64,000 bases of DNA from a virus (IMGVR_UViG_3300025030_000006), one strand, 5' to 3'. Positions 18,736-44,817 are shown, counted from the first letter of the stretch. Numbers and translations are program-made. The notes: generated by a model from the letters alone, not told the origin.

Positions 18736-19149
18736 ATGGATGAAAAGAAAAAATTCAATCCCTATCCAGAAGGAATAATTCATCCCATTCCAAAAGAGCA
18801 ATATCCCAAACTCAATTCAGAACACAAACAAATGCTGGAATTATTTAATCGGAAAAAACAATTGGAAGAAGAACTCAAGGAAGTCAATGAATCAATTGAC
18901 AGAAAGGAGAAACTGATTTTAAAACAAATTGATTCAGGTAAAACATTTAATTGGTGTTGGAAATGGATTTTTACCAGAACTAATATTTCGTGGAAAGATG
19001 TTTGTATTAAGTTTATTGGTAAAAAGAAAGTAGAGGAAATATCCGCAAGAACGGAAGCAACCAAATATCCCCATGTTGGAATTGAGGGATTCCACCCTAG
19101 ACCATTTCAGAAACCAAGGCGTTTCAATCTTAGAAGACCAATTAAATGA
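18736..19149 (+). CDS. hypothetical protein with basic C-terminal tail (..KPRRFNLRRPIK)
   Basis: Track ORF. AAAGGAGAATTAAATG RBS. Confidence 0.6.
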   Translation: MDEKKKFNPYPEGIIHPIPKEQYPKLNSEHKQMLELFNRKKQLEEELKEVNESIDRKEKLILKQIDSGKTFNWCWKWIFTRTNISWKDVCIKFIGKKKVEEISARTEATKYPHVGIEGFHPRPFQKPRRFNLRRPIK

Positions 19150-22140: not shown

Positions 22141-23805
22141 ATGTCTTTCTATTTTGAATTTCCCTCCATAGAAAGAAAATCAAAAACTAATTTTGATTGC
22201 AACAAATGCACTTTAAAGAATAATAAAATTCAATCCCCAGAAATGCAAATGTATGTTGGAGAACAATACGAAGGATTAATTATTTTAGGAAACAAAGCAT
22301 CAAAACATGATGATGAAAAGGGATTTCCTTTTGCTGATTCCCGTTCAAAAATATTGAGAAGTACAGCCGCAAAATTCAGAATTAATTTATCAAAACAAGC
22401 CGCAATGCTTCATGCTGTTTCCTGCTATAACCCTACCAAAAAGAAAACTTCTGATACACATTTTAAATGCTGTCAAAGTATTTTAGATGCACGTCTTAAA
22501 GAATTACGTCCTAAATTGATTATCTGTTGTGGTGAATTGGCTTTTAAATATATTTTTGGGTTGAAAAACAAATATGCCATTTCAAAATTAAGAAACAGAA
22601 TCATTCCTAATTACCAATACAACTGTCTGGTTTTTCCTGTTTACGACCCTTATAATTATGAAATGTATAACACCAGAAAAGAAGAGGAAGAACTAAGTTA
22701 TTATTACGAACATGCTTATAAATGGGACTTACAAAGAATATTTGAATTATGGGATAAGAAATTTCATAAAAGAACGGAGGTCAACAAAGTTCTGAAAGAA
22801 AGAAAAATTCTTGAGAATATTGAAATAAAAGAAGTAACTGATTTCCATGAAGCCAAGGAATTATTCAGACTTTGGAATAAATCTAAAGCCATTTGCCTTG
22901 ACTATGAAACCACTAATTTGTTTCCTTATGATAATCATTTTGAAATTGTTTATGCTGCCTTTGGAAATAAAACAAATGCTTGGGTTTTCCATGAAGATTT
23001 TTGGAAAGATAATCCATTCGTAAAGATTTGGTTCAAACGTCAAATGCAAAGGATTCTGGTTAATCAGAAAGTATTGAAAGTAGTTCAGAACAGCAAGTTT
23101 GAAGATTTATGTTCTAGGTTTGTTTATGGAATAAAAGAAATAAAGAATTCATTTTGTACCATGCTGGCGCAACACGTAATTGATGAAAGAGAAGGATGTA
23201 CTTCATTGGATTTCCAGAATTTAATACGGTTTGGAATTCCTCCTTATAATGAAACCATAAAGAAATATTTGATAACGGATAAGAAAGCCAAGGAAATTGA
23301 ATCGGATGATTCAGAAGATGAGATGGAAGAAATCATTGAATTGGATGAAGCAAAAGCATATACGTTTCAGAAAGTAAATAAAATCAGAGAAGCACCAAAA
23401 CAAGATATGATTCAATACAACGGCCTTGACGTTATTACAGCATTTAATCAGTGGGTTTTATTTGAAAAAGATTTGTTGGATTCCTATCCTAAAGCCAGAG
23501 AGAATTACGAATTCTTGAATGAAGGTCATTGGTTGTTTGCCAGAATGAGTCAAAGAGGAGTTAATATTGGTGAACAGGAATTAAAAGATTTTGAATTGTT
23601 CTTGGAAAAAGAAATTGAAAGAATAGAAAAGAAAATAATGGAGATACCGGAAATTCAAGAATATAACAAGCATTTGGAATCAAAAAGTTCAAAGACAAAG
23701 AAGAAAAAGAATGATAAGCAATTGGAAGATTTATGTTTTTCTAAACCTAAAAAGATTCGGTTGATTAATAGAAAATTTGATTTTACGGAAGGAGAAGAGA
23801 AATGA
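22141..23805 (+). CDS. family A DNA polymerase, N-terminal fragment: UDG-family-4-like domain, 3'-5' exonuclease and start of the polymerase domain
   Basis: The first ~170 aa resemble a family-4 UDG fold (GNKASKHDDEKGFPFADSRSKIL; FPVYDPYNY). ExoI-like motif ICLDYETTNL. Ends ..KKIRLINRKFDFTEGEEK at a TGA. Confidence 0.75.
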   Translation: MSFYFEFPSIERKSKTNFDCNKCTLKNNKIQSPEMQMYVGEQYEGLIILGNKASKHDDEKGFPFADSRSKILRSTAAKFRINLSKQAAMLHAVSCYNPTKKKTSDTHFKCCQSILDARLKELRPKLIICCGELAFKYIFGLKNKYAISKLRNRIIPNYQYNCLVFPVYDPYNYEMYNTRKEEEELSYYYEHAYKWDLQRIFELWDKKFHKRTEVNKVLKERKILENIEIKEVTDFHEAKELFRLWNKSKAICLDYETTNLFPYDNHFEIVYAAFGNKTNAWVFHEDFWKDNPFVKIWFKRQMQRILVNQKVLKVVQNSKFEDLCSRFVYGIKEIKNSFCTMLAQHVIDEREGCTSLDFQNLIRFGIPPYNETIKKYLITDKKAKEIESDDSEDEMEEIIELDEAKAYTFQKVNKIREAPKQDMIQYNGLDVITAFNQWVLFEKDLLDSYPKARENYEFLNEGHWLFARMSQRGVNIGEQELKDFELFLEKEIERIEKKIMEIPEIQEYNKHLESKSSKTKKKKNDKQLEDLCFSKPKKIRLINRKFDFTEGEEK

Positions 23806-27648: not shown

Positions 27649-28602
27649 ATGCAAATTACAAACTATCTTAGGGCTGGTTATGCTTCTGTTTTTTGTGAGG
27701 CAATTGAAATTAAACGCTGTGTTAAATCCATTTCAGTTGATTTGCCATTTGAGAAATTGGAATGGGACTTTGTAACAGGATTGGAAGTTAATAAACAAAA
27801 GGAAGAAGCCAATCAAGTTGAAATTCTTAACAAGGCAACTGAATTACAACAAAAGGCAATCATTCTGGAAAACTTTGATTTGTTTCTGGAAAACCCCATT
27901 ATTATGCAAACATTCCTGAATAATTATGAAACATATAAATCCAATCAGGTTTGTTTGGTAATGGTAGGAAATTCCTCATCCAAGATTCCCGTTATTTTAA
28001 AAGAACTGATTCCTGTAATTGAGTTCAATCTTCCCAATAAAGAAGAAATCAGGAAGATTGCAGAAATTATTTCCACCACAGCGGAAGAAGATTTTAAACA
28101 ATCCAAAGATTATGATAAGAATAAAAAGGAATTCGATTTCCATGTATCTGAAGAATTGATTTCCGCTTGTCTAGGATTAAGTCATGAAGAGGTTGAAAGC
28201 ATTTTAGCCCTGTCGCTCATTGAACATAAAAAATTGGATACAAAAACAGTCTTAGAAAGAAAAAGGCAAGTAATAAGACAAACTGGATTTATGGATTTTA
28301 TAAACCCAGAACCAATAGAAAATTTAGGAGGGTTAGATAAATTAAAAGAGTATATTTTTAAAAGAAAAGAAGCGTTTATTGAGGGAAGTATAAAACCAAA
28401 AATAAAATCAATGGTGATGGCCGGTTTTCCCGGAACAGGTAAAACGATGGCCGCAAAGGCAATTATTTCTATTTTTGATTGGCCAGGAATAATTCTTGAC
28501 GTAGGTTCTTTAAAAGGTGGAATCGTTGGTGAAACAGAAAAAAATGTAAGACATGCCTGCAAAACAATTGACGCTTTTGGAAGATGTATTGTAATACTGG
28601 AT
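27649..28602 (+). CDS. AAA+ ATPase, exon 1 (N-domain, Walker A, Walker B through ..VILD)
   Basis: Walker A GFPGTGKT. The coding sense ends at ..CIVILD|. The track ORF runs 4 codons into the intron. Confidence 0.8.
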
Positions 28603-28837
28603 AAACAAATCTAATCTTGTTCAGTATAAATCCCCTTAATTGCTGGAAACCCCTTAGAGCCAATTGAACTACAACGTAGCTGGAAACGGCAAGCGTGAAT
28701 GTTTGAAAATCAATTGGATTGGGCAATCAGCAGCCAAGTGCCTTTAAAATGGTGAAGGTTCAGAGACTATCCCGTAAGGGAGTAGGATTCAAGTGAATCC
28801 GAAATGGGGGACAAATAACAAAAATTCCTTTATTTTC

Positions 28838-28866
28838 TTGACTTCATAAATTCTCTATCCTATATT
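28838..28866 (+). promoter_or_regulatory. sigma70-like promoter inside the intron, upstream of the HNH ORF
   Basis: cTTGACT, 17 nt, TATATT. Lies 47 nt upstream of the HNH ATG. Confidence 0.45.
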
Positions 28867-28912
28867 CTTAAAATAAGTTTTCAGCACAAAATAGGACAAG
28901 GGAGATTTTATT

Positions 28913-29500
28913 ATGTGGTCCAAGAAACGTGGTAGATGCAAAGGGTGCCGTTCTATTCGTTACCGTCATCAAGCAAAGGGATTATGCACAAAATGTTATT
29001 TAGAAAAATATCGTAATAACCCACAAAACAAAGAAAAAAGCAAGAAACACAAAAGTGAATGGCTTAAAAAACAACCAAAAGAATATGGCAAAATGCGTAG
29101 AGAACAACTACATTTTGGTGGTAAAAGAGAATTAGCTTTAGAAAGAGATAATTATACTTGTCAAAAATGTGGGGAAAAAGATATTCCTAAATTAACTGTG
29201 CATCATATTGATGGTAATGGTAGAAAGCATAAAACACCAAACAATAAACTTAGTAATTTGCAAACTTTATGCAGAACATGTCACATTAAAATCCACAAGT
29301 ATGATTTAGTAAAAGGAAGAAGAACAATAAAAAGTGGATTTTGGAGCAAACACCATGATTTATGCAAAGTTTGCGAAACAACCGAAAGAAAACATTATGC
29401 TTTGGGCCTTTGTGTCTTATGCTACAAAAGGGTAGTTAGAAAAGCCAAAAAGGAAGGCTTGTTATTTGAAGATATAGTCCGAACTTATGAGAAATCATAA
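28913..29500 (+). CDS. intron-encoded HNH homing-endonuclease-like protein
   Basis: Contains CQKCGEKDIPKLTVHHIDGNG...NLQTLCRTCHIKIH. AGGGAG RBS. The 3' end overlaps intron core element S. Confidence 0.8.
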   Translation: MWSKKRGRCKGCRSIRYRHQAKGLCTKCYLEKYRNNPQNKEKSKKHKSEWLKKQPKEYGKMRREQLHFGGKRELALERDNYTCQKCGEKDIPKLTVHHIDGNGRKHKTPNNKLSNLQTLCRTCHIKIHKYDLVKGRRTIKSGFWSKHHDLCKVCETTERKHYALGLCVLCYKRVVRKAKKEGLLFEDIVRTYEKS

Positions 29501-29537
29501 GAGGAATAATGGAAACGATTATTCCAAAACAAAAAAG

Positions 29538-30074
29538 GAGATTGAAAAAGCCTTTGCAGGTGCGTCCGGTCAAAATCTTGATTCTGGTGTAAGTCAAGGG
29601 ATGTTGGGTTATTTTTTAACATGGATGCAAGAGCGTAAATCAGAAGGAATTGTTATTGCTACTGCAAATGATTTATCAAAATTACCTCCAGAATTTCTTC
29701 GTGCTGGTAGGTGGGATTGTATTTGGTTCGTTGATACGCCAAATGAAAATGAAGTAAAAGTTATCATTGAAATTATGAATAGGCGGTATCATTCAAAACT
29801 TCCTACCGATTCCAATTTCTGTAAAGAATTGGCTGAACAACAATGGACTGGTGCTGAAATTGAACAATTGGCTAAAGATTCCCATTTCGATGATTTGGAT
29901 ACGGCAATGAATAATATTCCTTTGCTATCCAGTTTCAGAAAAGAAGAAATGGATGAAATCAGGAAGAAAGCTAAAATGTTTCGTGCTGCCAGTAGTAAAG
30001 GAGAACCAATCAGAAAGAAAATTCAATTGAAAACAAAACCTGTTGCTGCCGGTAGAAAACTGAATCTTCATTGA
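29538..30074 (+). CDS. AAA+ ATPase, exon 2 (Walker B Glu, sensor 1, Arg finger, lid)
   Basis: Contains EIEKAF, IVIATAN and RAGRWD (classical AAA pattern). In frame with exon 1 after intron removal. Confidence 0.8.
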   Translation, partial: EIEKAFAGASGQNLDSGVSQGMLGYFLTWMQERKSEGIVIATANDLSKLPPEFLRAGRWDCIWFVDTPNENEVKVIIEIMNRRYHSKLPTDSNFCKELAEQQWTGAEIEQLAKDSHFDDLDTAMNNIPLLSSFRKEEMDEIRKKAKMFRAASSKGEPIRKKIQLKTKPVAAGRKLNLH

Positions 30075-30340: not shown

Positions 30341-30357
30341 AGGAAAGGAGAAAATAA

Positions 30358-30561: not shown

Positions 30562-30563
30562 TT

Positions 30564-31001
30564 ATGAGTCACTTTAGCCGTATTGACCTAAAAATTACTG
30601 ATTTGAATTGTTTGAAAAAAGCAGTTAAGAGACTTGGTGGGGAATTCAGGGAAAATCAAACAAGTTATAAATGGTGGGGGAGATATATGGGTGATTCCCC
30701 ATTGCCTGAAGGATTGACTGTAAACGATTTGGGGAAATGTGACCATGCAATCTCATTTCCCGGCAAAGCACAATATGAGATTGGCGTTGTTAAATCAAAA
30801 ACAAAACCAAAAAATTATGAGTTGCTTTATGATTATTGGCAATCAGGTGGTTTGAATCAGGTTGTTGGTCAAAATGCCGGTTTGCTTAAACAGGCTTATG
30901 GAATTGAAGCAGCAAAAACGCAAGCACTGTTATCTGGATATACTACAACAGAGAGAAAAGAAAAAGATGGTTCTGTTAAATTGGTAATCAGTGTAAGTTG
31001 A
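30564..31001 (+). CDS. DUF1257 (Ycf35-like) family protein
   Basis: The N-terminus MSHFSRIDLKITDLNCLKKAVKRLG matches my recollection of the DUF1257 signature. Confidence 0.6.
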   Translation: MSHFSRIDLKITDLNCLKKAVKRLGGEFRENQTSYKWWGRYMGDSPLPEGLTVNDLGKCDHAISFPGKAQYEIGVVKSKTKPKNYELLYDYWQSGGLNQVVGQNAGLLKQAYGIEAAKTQALLSGYTTTERKEKDGSVKLVISVS

Positions 31002-31013
31002 AGGGAAAACAAT

Positions 31014-31265: not shown

Positions 31266-31283
31266 AAGAAAGGAGTAAATAAA

Positions 31284-31472
31284 ATGAAGGAAATTGTGGT
31301 AATAATTAAACCAGACGGCAGTTCAAGCGTAGAGGCTTTTGGATTCAAAGGAACAAGTTGTAAAGACGCAACAAAAGAAATTGAAAAGGCATTGGGTAAA
31401 GTTGCTTCTGATAAGTTGAAGCCTGAGTATTATGAAACAGAACGTGTAGGAACAACAATCAAGATTAAATAA
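31284..31472 (+). CDS. DUF2997 family small protein
   Basis: The pattern IKPDGSSSVEAFGFKGTSCKDATKEIEKALG matches my recollection of DUF2997. Confidence 0.55.
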   Translation: MKEIVVIIKPDGSSSVEAFGFKGTSCKDATKEIEKALGKVASDKLKPEYYETERVGTTIKIK

Positions 31473-31529
31473 AACAATTCGGGGAGTTGCCTCCCTGAAA
31501 ATAAATAAGTAAGGGAGGCTGATTTAATT

Positions 31530-32321
31530 ATGAGAAAAGATGGACTGACAACTTATGAAAGAGTTGAAATTGAAGAAAGAATTGATACTTGGTTTGAAGG
31601 AAAAAATGATAATCAAATTGATGGATATGATTTTGATGATATTGTAGAAGCAATTATTGGAATAGTTGAAAATACTATTACGGTTGATTTGGTAAATGTG
31701 AGAAAATTCACTGATGTAAATAAATTCATTGAAAATAAAGTACAAAATAAATTAAAAGAAATTGAAAGTAGAATAAGGGAAAAAGAAATAAAAAGTGTAA
31801 GGGGAAAATTTAAAAAGAAAGAAAAAGTAAGCCTTGGAATTGAAGTAACCAATGCCATATTTAAACAAAAGAGGATTGGGTATAATGACAGATATACACC
31901 AACAAAGGCACTAAGTAATGTAATATTTTCTTCTGTAGAAAAAAATTCTAGAGATGAAATAGTATTCTCCATATTTTGTAACAATAAAAATGAATTTAAA
32001 GATGTAAAATATGTAAAGGGAACATTTGCATTTAATGTGTTGGATGAAAATAAAAAAGAAGAAACACCAAATTATATAGAAAGAATGGTTTATAATTATA
32101 CAAACAATAATTACAATAGACAGTATAGTTATGAGGGGTTGCTAAAAGTATTATCTATTGATAATACTGAGGTTTTTATTGAATTTATTGGTAAAAGTTT
32201 AAATGGGGATTTTTTAAAATATATGGCTGATAGAAAAGAATTTATTTTAAAGAGATTGGAAGAAGAAAAGAAAAAGGAAATGCTGGCTAATAGAAAAATA
32301 AATAGGCGATTTCATTTTTAA
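31530..32321 (+). CDS. hypothetical protein ending in KINRRFHF
   Basis: Track ORF. GTAAGGGAGG RBS. Confidence 0.6.
   Translation: MRKDGLTTYERVEIEERIDTWFEGKNDNQIDGYDFDDIVEAIIGIVENTITVDLVNVRKFTDVNKFIENKVQNKLKEIESRIREKEIKSVRGKFKKKEKVSLGIEVTNAIFKQKRIGYNDRYTPTKALSNVIFSSVEKNSRDEIVFSIFCNNKNEFKDVKYVKGTFAFNVLDENKKEETPNYIERMVYNYTNNNYNRQYSYEGLLKVLSIDNTEVFIEFIGKSLNGDFLKYMADRKEFILKRLEEEKKKEMLANRKINRRFHF
32292..32318. repeat. 27-nt exact repeat at the gene 3' end (copy 1)
   Basis: AGAAAAATAAATAGGCGATTTCATTTT is identical to 32796..32822. Confidence 0.85.
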
Positions 32322-32336
32322 AGAAAGGAGGAAATA

Positions 32337-32828
32337 ATGAGTTTAAGTGATTCATTTGATATAAAAGAAAAATATGATGAATATAAAATAGAAGTAGACA
32401 TTGAAACAGCACAAAGGGAATTTTTACCTATAGATATTCAATTTAACACTGTAAAAACCAAATACAAAATATTTAGTATTGTAGAACCACTTAAATTCAA
32501 TGTGGTGACTAGAAAATTATTAGGCAATTCTGGAGAAATAATTGGACAATCACCAACAACAATTGAAATTGATATAGTTACAAGTGGAACATTCTTTGAT
32601 TCAAATGATATTAAAAATGAAGTTTGTTTAAGTTTTAAAAACAAACAATATGGTTTAATTTATGGATATATAAAGGATACAAAGATAAGTCAGAAAGTAG
32701 GTAGCAATTACGTTTGTCTTGAATTTAAATTTGTTGGTGTGCTTGGTACATATTTTATGGATACAAAGAACGAAGAAGAAATTAAGAAAACAATAAGAAA
32801 AATAAATAGGCGATTTCATTTTGATTGA
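32337..32828 (+). CDS. hypothetical protein ending in KINRRFHFD
   Basis: Track ORF. AAAGGAGGAAATAATG RBS. Confidence 0.6.
   Translation: MSLSDSFDIKEKYDEYKIEVDIETAQREFLPIDIQFNTVKTKYKIFSIVEPLKFNVVTRKLLGNSGEIIGQSPTTIEIDIVTSGTFFDSNDIKNEVCLSFKNKQYGLIYGYIKDTKISQKVGSNYVCLEFKFVGVLGTYFMDTKNEEEIKKTIRKINRRFHFD
32796..32822. repeat. 27-nt exact repeat at the gene 3' end (copy 2)
   Basis: Identical to 32292..32318. Confidence 0.85.
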
Positions 32829-32882
32829 CGAGAAAAAATCCATTGGCTACAATGGAACTTCTTGATTGAAAGGGCACAATTT

Positions 32883-33053
32883 ATGAAGAATAAAAAATTT
32901 ATAGCCCACGTTGAATTTGATTCTCTTGTGATCTATGTTTCTGCAAAAAACATGGCTGAAGCCAAGAAAAAGATTATTGGAAAGGTAAGTAAAAGAAGTA
33001 TTAAAAAACTTATAGATAAACACAATTTTTTCATTGATGAATGTTCATTTTAA
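32883..33053 (+). CDS. hypothetical small protein
   Basis: Track ORF 32862..33053, trimmed to its first ATG. Weak RBS. Confidence 0.4.
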   Translation: MKNKKFIAHVEFDSLVIYVSAKNMAEAKKKIIGKVSKRSIKKLIDKHNFFIDECSF

Positions 33054-33106
33054 AATTTTAGAACTATTAAAAACTACTAAACAACAAATAAAGAGAGGAG
33101 GAAGTA

Positions 33107-34054
33107 ATGAATGAGAAAACGGGTAAAATTAAAAGGCTAAAATTGAGAGGAAAAGAAAGACCAAAAATCGCAACGGGTAAATCGAATGAGATTAATATCT
33201 TTAACCTTGGAACCCTTCTTCAGTTTGAATCCCATTGTTGGCAAGCGGTAAAAAGAATTCCCAAAGATAAAGCTAAAAAATATGGTAAGGATTTTGAAAA
33301 GGGTTGGATGAAAGCCAATAAAAACCTGATTAATAGGAAAAAATTGGAAGACATTCAATCTTATATTTCTGAATCCAGAAAAATGATTAATTCCTATGCC
33401 CTTCCTTTTCCAATCAAAGGTATTTACTTTATTCCCAATAATGCTGTTGAAAAAATCAATAGTGGTCTGAGAACCATTGCTGATGAAATGGGAGTCAGAG
33501 TAGAAGAATTTTCCCAACAATACTCTGAATACATTTTGGAAGCTAAGGAAGAATTGGGGGAGGAATCTTTCAATGAAGCAGATTATCCAATTAATATTAA
33601 ATCTAGGTTTGGTATTTATTGGAGATTCTTTGAAATGACTGTTCCCTCTTCCATCACCAATGAAATCAAAGAAGAAGAAACAAAACGGTTTAATGATTTG
33701 ATGCAACAGGCTAAGACGGAAGCTGTTATTGCATTGCGGGAAGGGTTTGCAGAAATCGTAAATCATTTGACTGATACTCTTTCGGGAAAGATTGATGGAG
33801 AAGAAAGGAGAATTAGGGCAACATCCCTTGAAAAAGTATCTGAATTTTTCAATGAGTTCCAATCTAAAAACGTATTTAAAGATAGTGAATTAGAATTGTT
33901 GATTAAGAAAGCGAAAGAGGTAGTCAGGGGTGTTTCTCCCAAAGATTTGAGAGATGATAATTCTTTGGTTAAATTGATTCATAATCAATTGGGGGAAATC
34001 AAAGAACAGTTGGATAATTCCACGGAAACCATTCGTAGACGTTTCACTTTTTAA
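33107..34054 (+). CDS. DUF3150-like protein ending in IRRRFTF
   Basis: Track ORF. AGAGGAGGAAGTAATG RBS. Overall pattern (..YALPFPIKGIYFIP.., ..YPINIKSRF..) recalled as DUF3150-like. Confidence 0.5.
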   Translation: MNEKTGKIKRLKLRGKERPKIATGKSNEINIFNLGTLLQFESHCWQAVKRIPKDKAKKYGKDFEKGWMKANKNLINRKKLEDIQSYISESRKMINSYALPFPIKGIYFIPNNAVEKINSGLRTIADEMGVRVEEFSQQYSEYILEAKEELGEESFNEADYPINIKSRFGIYWRFFEMTVPSSITNEIKEEETKRFNDLMQQAKTEAVIALREGFAEIVNHLTDTLSGKIDGEERRIRATSLEKVSEFFNEFQSKNVFKDSELELLIKKAKEVVRGVSPKDLRDDNSLVKLIHNQLGEIKEQLDNSTETIRRRFTF

Positions 34055-34273: not shown

Positions 34274-34504
34274 ATGGATTACATTGAAATATTTAAAAAC
34301 TATACTCTCTGTGTTTATTTGTTTTTTACAATTTGTTTTTGGGTATATCTTATTCATTTCTGTATTCAGAAATTTAAACAACAAAAACAAAGTATTTTTG
34401 TAACAATTGTTTTCTTTGTTTTGTCAGTTATTACAACTCCTTTCATTTGGCCTTATATTTCTGCTCGTTTCCTTATTAAGTACATGACAAAGGAAACAAA
34501 ATGA
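34274..34504 (+). CDS. small membrane protein
   Basis: Track ORF 34208..34504, trimmed to the ATG after the AAGGAAGGATAAT RBS. Two hydrophobic helices. Confidence 0.5.
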   Translation: MDYIEIFKNYTLCVYLFFTICFWVYLIHFCIQKFKQQKQSIFVTIVFFVLSVITTPFIWPYISARFLIKYMTKETK

Positions 34505-35016
34505 AAAAACTATCCTTGAAATCAAAAGAAAATTCAGAGGAAGAAAGGAGTAATAAATCAGAAAGTGATTTAGAATTCATTATTAATAATCTGCAAATAG
34601 ATAAATTCAAACTGGATGATGCTGCTGTTAAACAAATTGAATTATTTAACAAAATATCCAAAATTCTGCCAAAAGCAAGAGAGGCAGCATTAAGGGCAAA
34701 AAATAGGTTAGAAATCATTGAATCAGAATTATCAAAAGAAATGAGAAAAAATCCAAAATTGTACGGTTTGGATAAAACAAGTGATACCGTAATCACAAAG
34801 GAGGTAAAGAATCAAGATACATATAAACGGGCATTTTCAGCTTATTGTTTTGCAAAAGCAAAAGAAGATGAGTTTTCTATTACATTAAACAATATTCAAG
34901 AAAGGGGAAGAATGATAAAACTGCTTTATGATATGTGGGTTAATAGTTACTATGTTGATAATCACCAATTTGTAACAAAGAAAAAGCACCCATTAAAAAC
35001 AACAGAGGATTACTAA
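34501..35016 (+). CDS. possible UvsY-like recombination mediator
   Basis: Size, helical pattern and position next to the gp32-like and RecA-like genes. Only weak similarity to T4 UvsY as I recall it. Confidence 0.35.
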   Translation: MKKLSLKSKENSEEERSNKSESDLEFIINNLQIDKFKLDDAAVKQIELFNKISKILPKAREAALRAKNRLEIIESELSKEMRKNPKLYGLDKTSDTVITKEVKNQDTYKRAFSAYCFAKAKEDEFSITLNNIQERGRMIKLLYDMWVNSYYVDNHQFVTKKKHPLKTTEDY

Positions 35017-35032: not shown

Positions 35033-36169
35033 ATGGCTTTGAAAAAGAAATTGGGAAAAGGTAAATCGTCTGATTCTGATATCCGCGGAAAATTCAAAAA
35101 GAGGGATAAAACTATTCTTGAAAAAACGTACAATGAAAGGGAGGATAGAAGTAAAGCAGGTGGTGGTGGAAAATCTTATTTCAATCAGGAAAAATTGGAA
35201 GAATTCAATATCAAAGAATATCAACCTCACAAGGGGGATAATTACTTTGAAATTCTCCCGGTTTCTTATGAATCGGATATTCCCTATCATTTTGGTTGTT
35301 CCGTCCATTTTGGTACAGGCATTGCCAATGATATTTTTCTTTGTTTGCTTCGGTATAATGGAAAACCCTGCTATCGTTGTGAACAACAGCAATTGAAATA
35401 CAGGGAACACCCTAAAGGTGCTAAACCTACGGATGAAATCAAAAAACTTTATCCCACAGACAGGGAAATTTATCTGCTTTGGGATAGAACAGAAGAATTG
35501 GCAGAAAATAAAGACCCCGAATATCAATTGTATCTTTGGGGTGCTCCGAAAACAAAAGTACATGCTGAAATCCAGATTCTTGTCAGGGATAAGAAAAAGA
35601 AAACCACTCTTGATATTTCTGACGTTGATGAAGATGGAGAAGGCAGAACGGTTAATTTTGAAAAGATTCAGAAAAATAAAGATGATTTTCCCGAATATAA
35701 AGGATTTTCACTTTTGGGAAGGGATGAACCTATCCCTGATGAAGTTCTTTCCCAATTGAAAGAAATCATTGAAGCAGCAGAAGAATGCAATTATAAACAT
35801 CCTCTGGAAATGTTTTTGCATATTCCTGAATATAAAGAAGTCAAGGAATCCATGCTGACTGAAGGGGGTGGTGAAAGTGATGAAGAGGAAGAAGAAGACA
35901 AACCAAAGGATAAAAAGAAAAAGTTTGGAAAGGATAAAGATAAAAAGAAAGATGAAGAGGAAGAAATTGATGAGGATGCCCTTCTTGAAAAACTTGAGGG
36001 GCTTAAAGAAAAACTTGGGGATATGAATAGATTTAAGTTTAAAAAATGGTGCGAAGAAAATGATTATGAAGATGCGGCTGAAATGGATAAAGAAGAAGCC
36101 ATTGAAGCCATTGTTGATGACTTATACTCAAAAATGCTGGACAAAACAATTGGGGCAATTCCATTTTAG
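35033..36169 (+). CDS. gp32-like single-stranded DNA-binding protein
   Basis: Basic N-terminus. YFEILP resembles T4 gp32 VIRFLP. Zn-site-like H..C...CYRC. Long acidic C-terminal tail (DEEEEEDK...). Confidence 0.55.
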   Translation: MALKKKLGKGKSSDSDIRGKFKKRDKTILEKTYNEREDRSKAGGGGKSYFNQEKLEEFNIKEYQPHKGDNYFEILPVSYESDIPYHFGCSVHFGTGIANDIFLCLLRYNGKPCYRCEQQQLKYREHPKGAKPTDEIKKLYPTDREIYLLWDRTEELAENKDPEYQLYLWGAPKTKVHAEIQILVRDKKKKTTLDISDVDEDGEGRTVNFEKIQKNKDDFPEYKGFSLLGRDEPIPDEVLSQLKEIIEAAEECNYKHPLEMFLHIPEYKEVKESMLTEGGGESDEEEEEDKPKDKKKKFGKDKDKKKDEEEEIDEDALLEKLEGLKEKLGDMNRFKFKKWCEENDYEDAAEMDKEEAIEAIVDDLYSKMLDKTIGAIPF

Positions 36170-37413: not shown

Positions 37414-38547
37414 ATGAGCCGTCTTAAATTGAGTAATAAACATATTGAAGAAGAAAAACCAAAAAAGAAAATATCTCTGAAAAAAGCATTGACAGAAGAA
37501 CCAGAAGAAAAAAAGGAAAATGAAAGAATTGATTTTCTTAATACTGGTTCCATTGTTTTAAATCTTGCTGCTTCTCAAAAAGGAAGAAGGGGAGGATGGG
37601 CAAGGGGTAGGGTTATTAATATAGTCGGAAATGAGTCAAGTGGCAAGTCGCTTTGTAATTTAGAAATGTTAGCAAATGCTTTTCATACATTTAAAAAAGA
37701 AAATAACCTTCCTTCTTATGTTTTCCCAAAGGTTAAGAATCTGATTATGGTTTATAATAATGTAGAAGGGATTATGGATTTTCCCTTGGAGTCCCTTTAT
37801 GGTGAAGATTTTGTAAAAGCAATTGAATGGGTTTCTTCTAAAACCTGTGAAGAATTTGGTAGAGATGTTCAAAGAAGAGTTGATGCTTTAAAACAGGGTG
37901 ATTGTCTTTTATACGTTGTTGATTCTTTGGATGCAATGGTTTCTTCAGCACAAAAGGAAAGAACAGAAAAAGCATTGAAGACAGACAAGGATGAAGATGC
38001 CGCTTATGGTGCTGAAAAAGCCAAATATTTTTCTGGTGCATTTTTCAATAACCTTTGTGAAAAACAACAGGGGAAAGATGCTACCATTTTTATGATTTCT
38101 CAATTGAGAGAAAATATTGGTGGTGGAATGTTTGCAGAAAAATATAAAAGAACAGGTGGAAAAGCATTGGATTTTTATTCTCACCAAGTTTGTTGGTTGC
38201 GGGTAAAAGATAAATTGAAAAAAACATTTAGAGGGCATGATAAAATCTTTGGTGTTCGTGACCATGCACTTTTCAAAAAGAATAAATGTGCAAAACCCTT
38301 CAGGGAAGCAGAATTTACTATTCTATTTGATTACGGTTTGGATAATATCGGTTCCATGACAGATTATTTGTTTGGGCCACAAGTTAAAGTTATTGAATGG
38401 AATGATGAGAAGTATAAACGGGATGAATTTATTGATTTGATTGAAAACAATAAAAAAGAATATGAAAAATTGGTGGATAAGATAGAAAAAGATTGGGCTG
38501 AAATTGAGGACGCAATTAAACCAGATAGAAAAAACAGGTGGGAATAA
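37414..38547 (+). CDS. RecA/UvsX-family recombinase
   Basis: GGWARGRVINIVGNESSGKS resembles RecA [20 protein letters not shown]. Walker B-like LLYVVDSLDA. Confidence 0.75.
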   Translation: MSRLKLSNKHIEEEKPKKKISLKKALTEEPEEKKENERIDFLNTGSIVLNLAASQKGRRGGWARGRVINIVGNESSGKSLCNLEMLANAFHTFKKENNLPSYVFPKVKNLIMVYNNVEGIMDFPLESLYGEDFVKAIEWVSSKTCEEFGRDVQRRVDALKQGDCLLYVVDSLDAMVSSAQKERTEKALKTDKDEDAAYGAEKAKYFSGAFFNNLCEKQQGKDATIFMISQLRENIGGGMFAEKYKRTGGKALDFYSHQVCWLRVKDKLKKTFRGHDKIFGVRDHALFKKNKCAKPFREAEFTILFDYGLDNIGSMTDYLFGPQVKVIEWNDEKYKRDEFIDLIENNKKEYEKLVDKIEKDWAEIEDAIKPDRKNRWE

Positions 38548-40873: not shown

Positions 40874-41350
40874 ATGAGTCTATTTAAGAATCCACATGCT
40901 AATCAAAGATATTTTGAAAGAGTACATCCTGATACTGCATCCAAGAAAGATATTGTCAAAGCATTACAACATCCAAGTAATGTTGAATATATCAAAAGAC
41001 TGACCGAAGGGAGGTCAATGGTTTATATTCATCTGCCAAATGATAATATTGTAAAAGCTATCATAAATAAAAGGAAAAAAGAAATTGTAACAATTTTGCC
41101 GTGGAAAGATATTTATAAAATTGAAATTCCCATTCATAATTTAATAAATTATTATATTGTTGATTTTTACCCTGATTGTTTTTTAGAAACAAATAATCCA
41201 TCAACTTTGAACAAAATAAAAAAATATCAATATGCAAATTTCATGTACGAATATATTGAATACAACAATTCTGACTTTGAACCAATTATTTTAAAAGCAT
41301 GGGAAAAATATGAAAAAAATAATCCTGAAAAAGAAACCAAAGAAAGTTGA
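40874..41350 (+). CDS. hypothetical protein
   Basis: Track ORF. AAAGGAGTGATATATG RBS. Confidence 0.55.
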   Translation: MSLFKNPHANQRYFERVHPDTASKKDIVKALQHPSNVEYIKRLTEGRSMVYIHLPNDNIVKAIINKRKKEIVTILPWKDIYKIEIPIHNLINYYIVDFYPDCFLETNNPSTLNKIKKYQYANFMYEYIEYNNSDFEPIILKAWEKYEKNNPEKETKES

Positions 41351-41693
41351 ATTAAAGAAAAAAGAAAATAATAAAGACAGACAACCAAGTAATGACACAT
41401 ATCCAAGTAAAAAGGTTGAACAATTTCATAATACACTTGATAGAAATATAAAGTTATCAGAAGAAAGGAATAAAACTTTAGGAAAACCAGAAATTGGTAA
41501 ATGGTACAATTATAAAGAAAGATTTCCCCCTAATGACTTCAACCAATGGATTGCTGTTGAATCAGAACAAGAAAATATAGAAGCACATAAATCAGCGGTT
41601 ATGCTACAACATTATATTTCTGACGTTTTTTGTTGTGATAGAAAACCAAGATACCCAAAATGGACACTAATTCCAAAACAAAAGGAGAAATAA
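41310..41693 (+). CDS. hypothetical protein with basic N-terminus (MKKIILKKKPKKVELKKK)
   Basis: Track ORF. Overlaps the upstream gene by 41 nt. Confidence 0.5.
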   Translation: MKKIILKKKPKKVELKKKENNKDRQPSNDTYPSKKVEQFHNTLDRNIKLSEERNKTLGKPEIGKWYNYKERFPPNDFNQWIAVESEQENIEAHKSAVMLQHYISDVFCCDRKPRYPKWTLIPKQKEK

Positions 41694-43627: not shown

Positions 43628-44548
43628 ATGTTAATTCTTATTTGTGGTGACTTCCATATAACGGGTAAAAACCCAATAAGCCGATTGGATGATTTAACTG
43701 AGACACAATTTTTAAAATTAAATGAGATTAAAGATTTTGCAAATAAACATAATTGCCCCATTGTTTCTGTTGGTGATTTTTTTCACGTTCCTATAATTGC
43801 TAATAGTATTCTTAATAGAGTTGGAGAAATTTTAAATCAATTAGATAACCCTTGGTATACTTGTTGGGGCAATCATGACACACTTTATCATTCAGTTGAG
43901 TTAGCCAATCGTACAAGTCTTGGGGTATTATTGACAAATCATCCAAAGATAAAACATATAACAAAGTTTAAAAATGATTATGGCGTTTCCTTCGATTATA
44001 CCGATTGGGATACACCAACAAAGGAAAATAATTCAAAGTTTCTTTTATCTCATAAGGCTATAATTTCTGAAAAACAATCCAAGTCAAATTTCTGGATTGA
44101 GAAAGATGAAACCTTTGCAAAACAAGTTGGAAAATGGTCTGACAAATATAAAATAATTATATGTGGACATTGGCATATCTCATACCGTTTCAAACACAAT
44201 AAAACACTGATAATCAATAGTGGTCCAATTAATCGCTTGACCATAGAAGATAATCTGCAACCATCTGTTGTTTTACTTAATTTAGAAACAGGTATTTTTA
44301 AAAGACACTACTTAGAATCTGCAAAACCATTCGATGAAATCATCTCTGCCAAACATATTATCAGAAAGGAGAATAATTCAGAAAATATTAAAAAGTTTAT
44401 TTCCGCAATTAATAAAAAAAGAAGTAATTATGATTCAGCATTTATGGATTATTTAATGGAAATTGTTGATAACCATGAGTTAGATAAAGACATGGAGGAA
44501 TTATTGGTTAATATTCTAGCTAAAACAAAAGAAAGGAAAAACAAATGA
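43628..44548 (+). CDS. Mre11/SbcD-like metallophosphoesterase nuclease
   Basis: Contains ICGDFH, GDFFH, GNHD and GHWH motifs. Confidence 0.75.
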   Translation: MLILICGDFHITGKNPISRLDDLTETQFLKLNEIKDFANKHNCPIVSVGDFFHVPIIANSILNRVGEILNQLDNPWYTCWGNHDTLYHSVELANRTSLGVLLTNHPKIKHITKFKNDYGVSFDYTDWDTPTKENNSKFLLSHKAIISEKQSKSNFWIEKDETFAKQVGKWSDKYKIIICGHWHISYRFKHNKTLIINSGPINRLTIEDNLQPSVVLLNLETGIFKRHYLESAKPFDEIISAKHIIRKENNSENIKKFISAINKKRSNYDSAFMDYLMEIVDNHELDKDMEELLVNILAKTKERKNK

Positions 44549-44817
44549 ATGATGGAAACAACAGTAGAAGATTTAAAGTAATGACAATTTCAAACGAAAA
44601 CATGCTTAAACTTATGACAGGAGAAATACGAATTAAGAATATTCCAGAATATACAAAACTGCGTGAGGCTTTTCCTAGGGATTTTTCAAGGTGTTGGGGA
44701 ATAGTTATTGAACATCCTAGTTTTCCAGAAGTACCATTAGGAATGGAATGTGAAAGTTTTGTTCTTGAGATTGAAGAAACTGGAAAAAGAAATGGAAGAA
44801 AACTTTACTTTGACTAA
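44545..44817 (+). CDS. hypothetical protein (C-terminus ..NGRKLYFD)
   Basis: Track ORF. ATGA overlap with the upstream stop. Confidence 0.55.
   Translation: MNDGNNSRRFKVMTISNENMLKLMTGEIRIKNIPEYTKLREAFPRDFSRCWGIVIEHPSFPEVPLGMECESFVLEIEETGKRNGRKLYFD

What the first reader, a model, noticed from the sequence alone, without database searches (positions are those of the whole stretch)
31530..34054. Shared C-terminal tail INR[RK]F[HD]F / IRRRFTF on three consecutive unrelated proteins and on the N-terminal DNA polymerase fragment
Gene 31530..32321 ends ..ANRKINRRFHF*. Gene 32337..32828 ends ..IRKINRRFHFD*. The DUF3150-like gene 33107..34054 ends ..ETIRRRFTF*.

The bodies of the first two proteins show no obvious similarity to each other. 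Even so, their last 27 nt are identical at the DNA level (32292..32318 equals 32796..32822).

The PolA N-terminal fragment (22141..23805) carries the same peptide near its C-terminus (..KPKKIRLINRKFDFTEGEEK*).

Weaker versions of the tail appear on other proteins:
- ..NGRKLYFD* on gene 44545..44817.
- ..AGRKLNLH* on AAA+ ATPase exon 2.
- ..KPRRFNLRRPIK* on gene 18736..19149.

A basic stretch followed by an F-x-F carboxy terminus recalls the clamp-docking tails of T4/RB69 replication proteins; I recall the RB69 polymerase ending ..LFDMFDF. I therefore infer a common docking peptide for an unidentified hub, such as a processivity factor, the polymerase C-terminal fragment, the AAA+ ATPase or the SSB.

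Alternatively, the 27-nt identity could reflect an RNA- or DNA-level element at gene 3' ends, or recent gene conversion.
Basis: partly seen in the sequence, partly recalled or inferred. Interest (0 to 1): 0.75.

Follow-up and report, generated by a model that had tools for sequence, protein, structure and literature searches.

The report
Shared docking tail on phage proteins
Many unrelated replication proteins of this uncultured phage end (or begin) with the same short basic-hydrophobic peptide, which looks like a common address tag; it comes from a five-gene ATPase module of unknown function also found on plasmids, and what it binds is not known.

Summary
Genes 31530-32321, 32337-32828, 33107-34054 (DUF3150) and the PolA N-fragment end in I-[NR]-R-[RK]-F-x-F: 4 observed, 0 in 300 shuffles.

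- **Selection is on the peptide.** The invariant Arg uses four codons and Leu five. The 27-nt identity is local gene conversion, without RNA structure.
- **The tails are flexible.** AlphaFold2 gives pLDDT below 50 for both DUF3150 ends.
- **The tails are conserved.** They persist in 45 homologues. P-x-R-[RK]-φ-x-φ holds one of only three invariant columns in 60 diverse DUF3150 representatives.
- **The motif is portable.** At least 8 unrelated small proteins in the slot before DUF3150 carry it. A looser [RK][RK]φxφ form marks a terminus of 25 of 70 replication-module genes against 2 of 61 others.
- **It tracks a cassette.** AAA ATPase–DUF1257–DUF2997–84-aa protein–DUF3150 also occurs in a cultured Acidobacteria phage and a Nitrospirota plasmid. 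One relative lacks the cassette and also lacks the tails.

Best reading: a docking peptide whose receptor lies in this cassette, probably the Cdc48/PAN-like ATPase. The receptor is inferred, not shown. No clamp gene was found, and the motif lacks the Gln that defines bacterial clamp-binding motifs.

The parts
32298..32318 (+). Tail INRRFHF at the C-terminus of the 263-aa protein 31530-32321
   Evidence: Translation. The homologue in L001 (29% identity) ends ..TRRIHFD*.
32802..32822 (+). Tail INRRFHF (+D) at the C-terminus of the 163-aa protein 32337-32828
   Evidence: Translation. The body is unrelated to 31530. The 27 nt 32796-32822 are identical to 32292-32318.
34031..34051 (+). Tail IRRRFTF at the C-terminus of the DUF3150 protein 33107-34054
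   Evidence: Pfam DUF3150. The tail is kept in 45 homologues. The Arg is invariant and the Pro at -2 is at least 90% conserved in 60 diverse representatives. Residues 309-315 have pLDDT below 50.
33125..33154 (+). N-terminal copy KIKRLKLRGK on the DUF3150 protein
   Evidence: Conserved as K[RK]φKLK in many homologues. Residues 1-27 have pLDDT below 50.
23743..23802 (+). C-terminal extension KPKKIRLINRKFDFTEGEEK of the PolA N-fragment (22141-23805), holding two motif copies
   Evidence: It lies beyond the polymerase homology, which ends near residue 517. A motif is present in 10 of 10 family members, plus L041, L042, L048 and L049.
27649..30074 (+). Classical AAA ATPase (Cdc48/PAN/FtsH-like), interrupted at 28594-29534 by an insert with an HNH ORF. 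It ends ..RKKIQLKTKPVAAGRKLNLH* (tail 30051-30071).
   Evidence: Pfam AAA, and NCBIfam CDC48/PAN as best named matches. Junction mapped against the intact L034 homologue. C-terminal motif in 18 of 21 members.
30564..31001 (+). DUF1257 protein, cassette member
   Evidence: Pfam DUF1257, E 1.4e-5. Same gene order in 20 or more loci and in plasmid CP114559.
31014..31265 (+). 83-aa protein, fifth cassette member
   Evidence: A profile of 4 homologues hits Tunturi_3 gp99 (E 1.8e-5) and the Manganitrophus 84-aa protein (E 8e-4), at Z=1000.
31284..31472 (+). DUF2997 protein, cassette member
   Evidence: Pfam DUF2997, E 3e-17.
19111..19146 (+). C-terminal KPRRFNLRRPIK of protein 18736-19149
   Evidence: Translation. 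8 of 8 family members carry KPKRFKL / KRLDL / KRLTL.
34501..34527 (+). N-terminal MKKLSLKSK of protein 34501-35016
   Evidence: In other clades the same family carries KPKRIxLKED at the C-terminus instead, 22 of 26.
37414..37485 (+). N-terminal extension of the RecA-like protein, with MSRLKLSNK and KPKKKISLKK
   Evidence: Pfam RecA. N-terminal motif in 11 of 22 relatives by regex, and M.R[VLI]KLK is visible in most. Absent in the cassette-less L051.
41310..41363 (+). N-terminal MKKIILKKKPKKVELKKK of protein 41310-41693
   Evidence: The counterpart in L032 starts MKKLILKKKPKRIKLFKK and ends ..KIKLRRK*.
44791..44814 (+). C-terminal NGRKLYFD of protein 44545-44817
   Evidence: Family members in another clade end ..KRKLTFK*. 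The L032 counterpart lacks it.
47860..47913 (+). C-terminal KRVELKRKPKRIQLKRRR of protein 47617-47916
   Evidence: Translation. The L032 counterpart ends ..KIKRKKLKRSS...
48939..48995 (+). C-terminal KPKKLVLKKKSKKLLLRKK of protein 48501-48998
   Evidence: The L032 counterpart ends ..KRLTLKSKGKNVKRIKLRKKT*.
48995..49033 (+). N-terminal extension MKRIILKRKIPKR on the 5'-3' exonuclease (FEN)
   Evidence: Pfam 5_3_exonuc_N starts at residue 19. L032 has MKKLNLKKIPKRKEK before TLLVDG. The distant FEN in L033 starts directly at MKNRTLLVDG.
54231..54248 (+). C-terminal KKKLLI of the SF2 helicase 52851-54251
   Evidence: Pfam ResIII/Helicase_C. The L032 counterpart ends ..KKRLLL*.
35033..36169 (+). 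gp32-type SSB, a rival receptor candidate, with a disordered basic N-terminus MALKKKLGK and the tip ..GAIPF*
   Evidence: AF2 pLDDT 81. Foldseek: RB69 gp32 2a1k E 6e-6, T4 1gpc E 8e-5.

Best explanation
The tails are copies of one short linear docking motif: R-[RK]-φ-x-φ, often preceded by Pro or Ile. In this clade it reads I-x-R-[RK]-F-x-F-COOH. It sits on flexible protein ends.

The motif is ancestral to DUF3150 proteins. These belong to a mobile five-gene cassette: classical AAA ATPase, DUF1257, an ~84-aa protein, DUF2997 and DUF3150. The cassette is found in phages and plasmids.

In this phage lineage the motif has been copied onto other proteins:
- a changing set of unrelated small proteins encoded in the slot just before DUF3150;
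- the N-terminal fragment of the split family-A polymerase;
- in a looser KP[KR][KR]φxL form, one end of about a third of the replication and recombination proteins.

I propose that the motif binds, in extended conformation, to one receptor encoded by the cassette. The most likely receptor is the N-terminal domain of the Cdc48/PAN-like AAA ATPase hexamer. DUF1257, DUF2997 or the DUF3150 body are alternatives. Clients would then be tethered to the ATPase for recruitment or remodelling.

**Shown:** the motif is selected at the peptide level, is disordered in the DUF3150 model, is portable, and co-occurs with the cassette.
**Inferred:** that it is a binding motif at all, the identity of the receptor, and what happens to the clients.
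For: **1. Selection is on the peptide.** At the invariant Arg the codons are AGA, CGT, CGC and AGG. Leu uses 5 codons and Ser uses both codon families.

**2. The tails are flexible.** DUF3150 residues 1-27 and 309-315 have pLDDT below 50 in a model with mean pLDDT 81.

**3. Conservation is deep.**
- All 45 homologues at 33-100% identity keep the C-terminal motif.
- The DUF3150 profile finds 8317 cluster representatives.
- In 60 diverse representatives (mean identity 33%) only 3 columns are invariant. One is the tail Arg, and the Pro at -2 is at least 90% conserved.
- Consensus: V-[DE]-x-P-x-R-[KR]-[IL]-x-[LF].

**4. The motif is portable.**
- After masking the tails, 11 unrelated clusters end in the strict tail.
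- At least 8 unrelated bodies occupy the slot between DUF2997 and DUF3150.

**5. The tails change in parallel.** In the window clade DUF3150, the slot proteins and PolA-N all have F-x-F. In other clades all have L-[ST]-F.

**6. The motif tracks the cassette.**
- The same AAA–DUF1257–DUF2997–DUF3150 order occurs in about 20 IMG/VR loci.
- Phage Tunturi_3 has AAA, DUF2997 and DUF3150 by profile search. Its DUF3150 ends ..DRKFHLEGEEF*.
- L028, a 60% GC contig, has AAA ending ..SKRKLVV*.
- On the Ca. Manganitrophus plasmid, DUF3150 ends ..RPKRKIRILPEAQEAVA*. A neighbouring 847-aa protein ends ..AAKRKIRLSPGS*.
- L051 has SSB, RecA, family-1 and PolA homologues in the same order. It lacks the cassette, its PolA is unsplit, and it has no tails.
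- L027, and plasmid pBVIE02 where the neighbouring ATPase is not of this type, lack both the classical AAA gene and the motif.

**7. The ATPase clade fits.** It belongs to the classical AAA clade, with CDC48, PAN and FtsH as best named matches. From my own knowledge, members of this clade read short terminal peptides of clients or adaptors.
Against: - No binding was tested, and no multimer model could be run.
- The receptor assignment rests on gene neighbourhood and on a single cassette-less comparator (L051).
- The ATPase itself carries the looser motif at its own C-terminus. That fits 'ATPase is also a client' as well as 'ATPase is the receptor'.
- The ATPase N-domain matches no known peptide-binding domain.
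- The strict tail and the loose KPKRφxL form may be two motifs with two receptors. The AAA tail does not follow the F/L switch between clades.
- The parallel change of tails could come from gene conversion among tails rather than co-evolution with a receptor.
- The hosts of cassette carriers all share universal hubs (clamp, ClpX, DnaK), which are not excluded.
- The loose motif is common by chance in a Lys-rich proteome: 54 observed against 41 expected overall. Only its position at termini is significant.
Confidence: 0.45

Rival explanations
1. The receptor is the phage's gp32-type SSB. The tails would mimic the SSB's own basic N-terminal cooperativity peptide, as the T4 gp32 LAST motif KRKST binds the core of the neighbouring gp32. 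Tailed proteins would then dock on SSB-coated single-stranded DNA. The SSB's extra C-terminal helical domain is another possible site.
For: - Protein 35033-36169 has the gp32 fold: RB69 2a1k E 6e-6, T4 1gpc E 8e-5.
- Its N-terminus is disordered and reads MALKKKLGK, or DRLKNRKKLT in relatives.
- The tails (K/R)2-3-φ-(S/T)-φ resemble (K/R)3(S/T)2.
- The role of the LAST motif in gp32-gp32 contact is documented (PMC12893549).
- The clients are the kind of proteins that work on SSB-coated DNA.
Against: - The motif is the most conserved part of DUF3150 in a Nitrospirota plasmid, an Acidobacteria phage and a 60% GC contig. No homologue of this SSB family lies within about 10 kb in any of them.
- L051 keeps the SSB, RecA, family-1 and PolA homologues but has no tails on them.
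- The AF2 model does not dock the SSB's own N-terminus anywhere; pLDDT is below 50.
Confidence: 0.15
2. The tails are recognition or degradation tags read by a universal host AAA+ machine such as ClpXP. They would be comparable to the basic-hydrophobic C-terminus of MuA (RRKKAI) or the SspB tail (LRVVK), and would time the removal or remodelling of phage proteins.
For: - The motif sits at the extreme N- or C-terminus.
- It consists of a basic cluster followed by hydrophobic residues.
- 33 of 149 diverse DUF3150 representatives end in Ala-Ala-COOH against 0.9 expected. This lies downstream of the motif and an acidic spacer. The layout recalls the two-part ssrA tag (the comparison is from my own knowledge).
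- ClpX is present in all the diverse hosts.
Against: - There is no clear reason for a phage to tag about 25 of its own replication proteins for a host protease.
- The Ala-Ala ending is absent in this AT-rich clade.
- The motif co-occurs with a cassette that brings its own AAA ATPase.
- An invariant Pro and Arg is more specific than the known ClpX classes.
Confidence: 0.1
3. The tails are clamp-binding peptides that recruit the host β sliding clamp, or an unrecognised phage clamp.
For: - The client list (polymerase, FEN, helicases, RecA-like, nuclease partners) resembles a clamp 'tool-belt'.
- The motifs are terminal, like those of Pol II, Pol IV and Hda.
- APIM-type [KR]-φ-φ-φ-[KR] peptides are reported to bind the β clamp weakly (PMC11139829). 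KRIILKR, KKLVLKK and KKLLLRK have that shape.
Against: - The clamp-binding motif is defined as Qφx[LM][FL] or Qφx[LM]x[FL], and Gln is the residue least tolerant of mutation (PMC11139829). Here that position is always Arg or Lys, and the adjacent hydrophobic pair is missing.
- No clamp or clamp-loader family was found among the ORFs of 160 aa or more.
- DUF3150, DUF-only small proteins and a plasmid methyltransferase-like protein are not expected clamp clients.
- L051 has the same replication genes but no tails.
Confidence: 0.07
4. The tails are non-specific basic anchors to DNA or to the acidic membrane, not ligands of a protein receptor.
For: - Runs such as KPKKLVLKKKSKKLLLRKK and KRVELKRKPKRIQLKRRR are strongly polycationic.
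- The clients act on DNA.
Against: - A non-specific anchor would not need an invariant Arg, a conserved Pro at -2 and a fixed φ-x-φ spacing over thousands of clusters.
- In GC-rich homologues the motif is followed by an acidic stretch.
- The φ-x-φ spacing suits an extended strand rather than an amphipathic helix.
Confidence: 0.06
5. The shared tail is a DNA- or RNA-level signal at gene 3' ends, or merely a product of chance or recent duplication, with no role as a peptide.
For: - There is an exact 27-nt identity between two tails in the window.
- A separate 21-nt identity links two tails in L034.
Against: - Other tail copies encode the same peptide with different codons.
- The 27-mer occurs only twice in the window.
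- Folding z-scores are 0.22, -1.64 and 0.98.
- Promoter-like sites are fewer than in shuffles, and terminator-like sites are within the range of shuffles.
- Rfam finds nothing there.
- The strict motif occurs 4 times against 0 in shuffles.
Confidence: 0.02

Closest known systems
Adaptor and client tails read by AAA+ N-domains (SspB LRVVK tail and ClpX; MuA RRKKAI C-terminus and ClpX; VBM, SHP or MIM motifs and Cdc48/p97 or Vps4). From my own knowledge.
   Same: - A short terminal peptide on a flexible end.
- A basic cluster followed by hydrophobic residues.
- Many unrelated clients share one tag.
- A classical AAA ATPase is encoded next to the clients.
   Different: - The motif sequence (P-x-R-[RK]-φ-x-φ) matches none of these.
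- The ATPase N-domain has no detectable similarity to known N-domains.
- No binding has been shown.
- The ATPase carries a related tag itself.
T4 gp32 LAST motif (Lys-Arg-Lys-Ser-Thr, N-terminal domain)
   Same: - Three basic residues with Ser or Thr, on a disordered end, binding a neighbouring protein in the replication complex (PMC12893549).
- The phage has a gp32-type SSB with a basic N-terminus.
   Different: - LAST has no obligatory hydrophobic φ-x-φ.
- LAST is found on the SSB itself, not on its partners.
- The motif here exists where no SSB of this family lies nearby.
- The motif is missing from L051, which has the SSB.
Bacterial β-clamp-binding motif (Qφx[LM][FL]) and the APIM motif
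   Same: - Terminal or loop peptides shared by polymerases, nucleases and repair proteins.
- Bound in extended form in a hydrophobic cleft (PMC11139829).
   Different: - The defining Gln is replaced by Arg or Lys.
- There is no adjacent hydrophobic pair.
- No clamp gene was found.
- APIM needs an aromatic residue at position 2, which most copies lack.
T4/RB69 gp45-binding C-termini of gp43, gp33 and gp55
   Same: A C-terminal peptide shared by several phage proteins as a handle for one ring-shaped hub (PMC2988020, PMC7892883).
   Different: - Those peptides are acidic or hydrophobic, whereas this one is basic.
- The polymerase here is family A and split.
- No gp45 or gp44/62 homologue was detected.
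Acidic C-terminal tails of E. coli SSB (DDDIPF) and of T7 gp2.5 and gp4
   Same: - A network of terminal tails organises the replisome.
- This phage's SSB (..GAIPF*) and DnaB-like helicase (..EAENYY*) have such acidic tails as well.
   Different: - The polarity is reversed. There the hub carries the tail and each partner has a pocket. Here many partners carry the tail.
- The charge is opposite.

Membership tests
Bacterial β-clamp-binding motif (CBM) | Gln at position 1 (Qφx[LM][FL] or Qφx[LM]x[FL]) | tested here: not met
   The position before the first hydrophobic residue is R or K in all tails. Definition taken from PMC11139829.
Bacterial β-clamp-binding motif (CBM) | Hydrophobic residues at positions 2 and 4 plus 5 (or 6) | tested here: inconclusive
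   φ-x-φ is present. The adjacent pair (positions 4-5) or a third φ at position 6 is usually absent. Some N-terminal copies (RLKLKV) fit the φxφxφ pattern.
Bacterial β-clamp-binding motif (CBM) | Binding to the hydrophobic cleft of DnaN | not testable with these tools
   The host is unknown, and no multimer modelling was available.
T4/RB69-type clamp-interaction tail | A gp45-like clamp and gp44/62-like loader encoded by the phage | tested here: not met
   Pfam and PHROGs searches of the ORFs of 160 aa or more in the 64-kb window found none. About 34 kb of the genome lies outside the window and was not seen.
T4/RB69-type clamp-interaction tail | Acidic/hydrophobic C-terminal peptide on a family-B polymerase | tested here: not met
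   The polymerase is family A (Pfam DNA_pol_A). The tail is basic.
gp32 LAST motif | (Lys/Arg)3(Ser/Thr)2 on the N-terminal domain of a gp32-type SSB | tested here: inconclusive
   The SSB has the gp32 fold and a basic N-terminus, KKKL / NRKKLT. The tails of interest are on other proteins and have φ-(S/T)-φ rather than (S/T)2.
ClpX recognition signals (C-motif 2 / ssrA-like) | A basic cluster followed by small hydrophobic C-terminal residues, or an ..LAA-COOH ending | tested here: inconclusive
   The sequence resemblance exists. 33 of 149 DUF3150 representatives end in AA-COOH, but none in this clade does. Recognition by ClpX is not testable here.
DUF3150 (PF11348) | Match to the Pfam model above its gathering score | tested here: met
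   E 2.2e-7, 30.9 bits against a cut-off of 24.9. The precomputed annotation gives PF11348 for most homologues.
AAA–DUF1257–DUF2997–DUF3150 cassette | The four families adjacent and in the same order | tested here: met
   Window 27649-34054. Same order in about 20 IMG/VR loci and in plasmid CP114559.

The most novel reading that the evidence does not exclude
R-[RK]-φ-x-φ is the address signal of a so far undescribed client-delivery system of mobile elements. A Cdc48/PAN-like AAA ATPase, with DUF1257, DUF2997 and DUF3150, would capture any protein carrying the tag and translocate, unfold or concentrate it. This could serve to assemble or recycle a replication factory. On plasmids, where the cassette lies beside ubiquitin-like (PRTRC ThiF/JAB) genes, it could serve a proteasome-like pathway. 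The variable small proteins in the slot before DUF3150 would be exchangeable adaptors or effectors.
Probability: 0.25. Interest if true: 0.85.

Novelty: new variant of a known kind. Interest (0 to 1): 0.72.

Why it matters
Shared docking peptides are how clamps, SSBs and AAA+ machines organise DNA replication. Very few such motifs are known in phages outside T4 and T7.

- **A new motif.** It is sharply defined and conserved across thousands of protein clusters.
- **A first handle on orphan families.** It gives a testable entry point to DUF3150, DUF1257, DUF2997 and their AAA ATPase. These are widespread in phages and plasmids, and none of the library papers that mention these DUF families addresses their function.
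- **Testable material.** The motif supplies a peptide bait, a list of about 25 predicted clients and natural controls. There is also a cultured carrier, Tunturiibacter phage Tunturi_3.
- **Practical use.** If a receptor is found, the tag could be used to predict clients in metagenomic phages.

Tried and rejected
- **Cultured relatives.** tblastn against 50,697 phage records found only distant hits: Tunturi_3, three cyanophages, and SPO1-like polymerases.
- **Fold of DUF3150.** The model is good, but no PDB match has E below 0.4. It is a helical bundle and uninformative.
- **SSB by sequence.** Single-sequence and profile searches against PDB found nothing. Only the structure comparison identified gp32.
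- **Genome collection.** The scan with the DUF3150 alignment found no confirmed relative. The broader alignment had no stretch conserved enough to scan with.
- No peptide-receptor co-folding was possible with the tools.
- **Defence-system library.** Only generic AAA similarity to IetA; nothing for DUF1257, DUF2997 or DUF3150.
- **Literature.** One incidental mention of DUF3150. Nothing on the function of these DUF families in the DUF1257/DUF2997/Ycf46 searches.
- **RNA or DNA element.** Rejected.
- **Lys-rich N-terminus bias as the cause.** Rejected by local shuffles and by the within-genome control.
- **False positives set aside.** The SbcC N-terminus (MIKKLSIKEF) is probably a structural strand (from my own knowledge of SbcC/Rad50 N-termini). 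The DUF1257 C-terminus (..KRRLVINV) may also belong to the fold (inference).
- **FEN relatives.** That search gave only two loci. The SSB-alignment scan returned only the same clade.
- **Third whole-database protein search.** Not used, because the loci already answered the conservation question.

Full report

Yes. The four endings are exactly as described:
- gene 31530-32321 ends ..KINRRFHF*;
- gene 32337-32828 ends ..KINRRFHFD*;
- the DUF3150 gene 33107-34054 ends ..TIRRRFTF*;
- the PolA N-fragment 22141-23805 ends ..KPKKIRLINRKFDFTEGEEK*.

Gene 33107-34054 matches Pfam DUF3150 above the curated cut-off. The polymerase fragment carries UDG-like and 3'-5' exonuclease domains, and the polymerase domain is in a separate gene, 24626-26038.

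The 27-nt identity 32292-32318 = 32796-32822 is exact and occurs only at those two places. The bodies of 31530 and 32337 share nothing beyond the tail.

The pattern I[NR]R[RK]F.F occurs 4 times. It occurred 0 times in 300 shuffled proteomes.

**2. The motif reaches further than the finding says.**

A looser form, [RK][RK]φxφ, is only mildly enriched overall: 54 observed against 41 expected. Its position, however, is far from random.
- 15 hits lie within 20 residues of an N-terminus and 19 within 20 residues of a C-terminus. The expectations are 5.8 and 6.3, and none of 500 shuffles reached either value.
- Interior hits are depleted.
- The excess survives shuffling restricted to the terminal 25 residues: 2 of 500 and 1 of 500 shuffles reach the observed values.
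- 25 of the 70 plus-strand genes between 18 and 56 kb have a terminal copy, against 2 of 61 other genes (Fisher p = 2e-6). N-terminal Lys/Arg content is similar in the two sets.

That block is the replication and recombination module. It holds the following:
- split PolA;
- an AAA ATPase;
- DUF1257, DUF2997 and DUF3150;
- a gp32-type SSB;
- a RecA-like protein;
- a PDDEXK nuclease;
- SbcC-like and Mre11-like proteins;
- ThyX;
- FEN;
- a DnaB-like helicase;
- dUTPase;
- an SF2 helicase;
- a primase.

Examples of terminal copies:
- FEN starts MKRIILKRKIPKR, before the conserved exonuclease domain begins.
- The SF2 helicase ends ..KKKLLI*.
- Protein 47617 ends ..KRVELKRKPKRIQLKRRR*.
- Protein 48501 ends ..KPKKLVLKKKSKKLLLRKK*.
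- The AAA ATPase ends ..GRKLNLH*.

**3. The selected element is a peptide, not DNA or RNA.**

- Across DUF3150, the ~165-aa slot family ('fam8') and PolA-N in many loci, the invariant Arg is encoded by AGA, CGT, CGC or AGG. Leu uses five codons and Ser uses both codon families.
- The three tail regions do not fold better than shuffles; z-scores are 0.22, -1.64 and 0.98.
- Promoter-like sites are fewer than in shuffles, and terminator-like sites are within the range of shuffles.
- Rfam finds only a tRNA-Leu elsewhere in the window.
- Relative L034 has its own 21-nt identity between two of its tails, while a third tail there uses other codons.

The exact identities are therefore best read as recurrent local gene conversion or duplication between tail-coding segments. 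This sits on top of selection for the peptide.

**4. Conservation.**

- All 45 homologues of the DUF3150 protein (33-100% identity) keep [KR]R[KR]φ[ST][FLVW] at or within three residues of the C-terminus. Many also keep K[RK]φKLK at the N-terminus.
- In 28 related loci the C-terminal motif is present as follows:
  - DUF3150: 26 of 29;
  - the AAA ATPase: 18 of 21;
  - the family of 34501: 22 of 26;
  - the ~165-aa slot family: 18 of 18;
  - PolA-N: 10 of 10;
  - the family of 18736: 8 of 8;
  - a 57-aa family: 7 of 7.
- The RecA-like protein carries the motif at its N-terminus.
- In the 76%-identical genome the tags on FEN, the SF2 helicase and the counterparts of 41310, 47617 and 48501 are retained with substitutions that keep the pattern.
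- A profile search of 1.84 billion cluster representatives finds 8317 DUF3150-like clusters.
- Among 149 diverse representatives the C-terminal consensus is V-[DE]-x-P-x-R-[KR]-[IL]-x-[LF].
- In an alignment of 60 of them (mean identity 33%) only three columns are invariant. One is the tail Arg, and the Pro two residues upstream is at least 90% conserved.

The tail is therefore among the most conserved features of the whole family.

**5. Structure.**

The AlphaFold2 model of the DUF3150 protein (mean pLDDT 81) is a helical bundle with a small sheet. No PDB match is significant. Residues 1-27 and 309-315, which are the two motif-bearing ends, have pLDDT below 50. They behave as flexible tails outside the fold.

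**6. Portability.**

- The genes between DUF2997 and DUF3150 differ from genome to genome, in number (one to three) and in kind. All end in the tail.
- With tails masked, they fall into at least eight unrelated groups.
- Over all loci, 11 tail-masked clusters carry the strict tail and 27 carry the loose form at the C-terminus.
- The tails change together. In the window clade DUF3150, the slot proteins and PolA-N all have F-x-F. In the other clades all have L-[ST]-F.
- The AAA tail (RKLxL) does not follow this switch. The strict and loose forms may therefore be two classes.

**7. What the motif travels with.**

The order AAA ATPase–DUF1257–DUF2997–(slot)–DUF3150 is constant in about 20 viral contigs. 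An ~84-aa protein (31014-31265) is a fifth member.

The same cassette occurs in very different replicons:
- **Tunturiibacter phage Tunturi_3** (51% GC). AAA, DUF2997 and DUF3150 are detected by profile search. Its DUF3150 ends ..DRKFHLEGEEF*.
- **A 60% GC viral contig, L028.** Its AAA ends ..SKRKLVV*.
- **A Ca. Manganitrophus plasmid**, next to PRTRC/ThiF, JAB and ParB genes. There DUF3150 ends ..RPKRKIRILPEAQEAVA*. A neighbouring 847-aa protein ends ..AAKRKIRLSPGS*.

Natural controls point the same way:
- **L051.** The gene order runs PolA, a 130-aa ORF, the family of 34501, SSB, RecA, with no cassette in the syntenic slot. PolA is a single 876-aa chain without a tail. The RecA-like and 34501-like proteins lack the motif.
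- **L027**, and **plasmid pBVIE02** where the neighbouring ATPase is not of this type, lack both the classical AAA gene and the motif.

The ATPase belongs to the classical AAA clade. CDC48, PAN and FtsH are the best named matches. Its ~230-residue N-domain matches nothing known.

**8. Interpretation.**

The evidence shows a selected, flexible and portable peptide. It is ancestral to DUF3150 and linked to the cassette. I infer that it is a docking motif for one receptor encoded by the cassette.

I favour the N-domain of the AAA ATPase. From my own knowledge, classical AAA and AAA+ machines commonly read short terminal peptides of adaptors and clients. Examples are SspB and ClpX, MuA and ClpX, and p97 or Vps4 cofactor motifs. 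DUF1257, DUF2997 or the DUF3150 body remain possible receptors. What happens to the clients (recruitment, remodelling, turnover) is open.

**9. Rivals.**

- **SSB as receptor.** The SSB is a gp32-type protein with a basic disordered N-terminus. T4 gp32 uses its N-terminal KRKST motif to bind its neighbour (PMC12893549), so SSB mimicry is attractive. The cassette-bearing replicons without this SSB nearby, and the cassette-less L051, argue against it.
- **Host ClpXP tag.** This is suggested by the terminal position and by an unexpected Ala-Ala-COOH ending in 33 of 149 DUF3150 representatives against 0.9 expected. It does not explain why so many of the phage's own replication proteins would be tagged.
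- **Clamp reading.** It fails the defining Gln test (PMC11139829), and no clamp gene was found. About 34 kb of the genome was not seen.
- **Non-specific DNA or membrane anchoring.** This does not fit an invariant Pro/Arg and fixed spacing.

**10. Novelty.**

None of the library papers that mention DUF3150, DUF1257/DUF2997 or Ycf46 addresses their function or this cassette. No defence-system model matches beyond the generic AAA domain. The principle of a shared docking peptide is known. The motif, its client set and its association with this cassette appear to be new.

Noticed in passing
window 27649-30074: The AAA ATPase gene is interrupted between residues 313 and 316 of the intact homologue. 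The insert is about 940 nt (28594-29534) and carries an HNH endonuclease ORF (28913-29500). The gene is intact in L034 and L035 and also interrupted in L001. Rfam detects no group I intron at gathering score.
   Followed up: partly
window 22141-26038: The family-A polymerase is split into an N gene (UDG-like plus exonuclease) and a C gene (polymerase), with 1-3 small ORFs between them. The split is present in all 14 relatives that have the cassette. PolA is a single 876-aa chain in L051, which lacks the cassette.
   Followed up: partly
P0094-P0242 (DUF3150 representatives): 33 of 149 diverse DUF3150 proteins end in Ala-Ala-COOH, against 0.9 expected. The ending lies downstream of the motif and an acidic spacer. 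The layout recalls a two-part ssrA-like tag.
   Followed up: partly
L039 (plasmid CP114559.1, 100001-150000): On a Ca. Manganitrophus plasmid the cassette lies beside a PRTRC system (ThiF-family, proteins A, B, C), a JAB-domain protein, ParB, toprim and helicase genes. This places a Cdc48/PAN-like ATPase next to ubiquitin-like conjugation genes.
   Followed up: no
window 35033-36169: The gp32-type SSB has an extra, confidently modelled helical domain (residues 314-369) after a disordered acidic linker. It ends ..GAIPF*, like the E. coli SSB tip; relatives end ..DDLPF*..ADINI*.
   Followed up: partly
window 49929-51356: The DnaB-like helicase ends in an acidic tail with terminal aromatic residues (..EEEKEAENYY*). 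This is reminiscent of the T7 gp4 tail.
   Followed up: no
window 11038-11832: A 264-aa protein whose middle consists of about 40 tandem Cys-Ser-Asp/Asn tripeptides (CSDCSNCSN...). It matches PHROG families of unknown function.
   Followed up: no
window 19357-20859: A 500-aa, very acidic protein with repeated short helical modules. It is conserved immediately upstream of PolA in 10 loci and has no family match.
   Followed up: no
window 42428-46468: The SbcC/Rad50-like ATPase is encoded in two separate genes: N-terminal part 42428-43465 and C-terminal part 45896-46468. The Mre11-like nuclease, a small tailed protein, ThyX and an 87-aa ORF lie between them. The same layout occurs in L029.
   Followed up: no
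window 26365-26748: Two adjacent paralogous small genes (58 and 67 aa) both start MKRIKLK and share a ..F[LM][AS]G[YF]YA.. motif. A relative in L035 starts MTLKKYKLKRK.
   Followed up: no
window 21375-21466: A tRNA-Leu (anticodon TAA) lies between early genes and the polymerase region.
   Followed up: no
window 58729-59607 (-) and 4507-5079 (-): A family-9 glycosyltransferase (heptosyltransferase-like) hints at a Gram-negative host. There is also a GmrSD_C-like nuclease domain protein.
   Followed up: no
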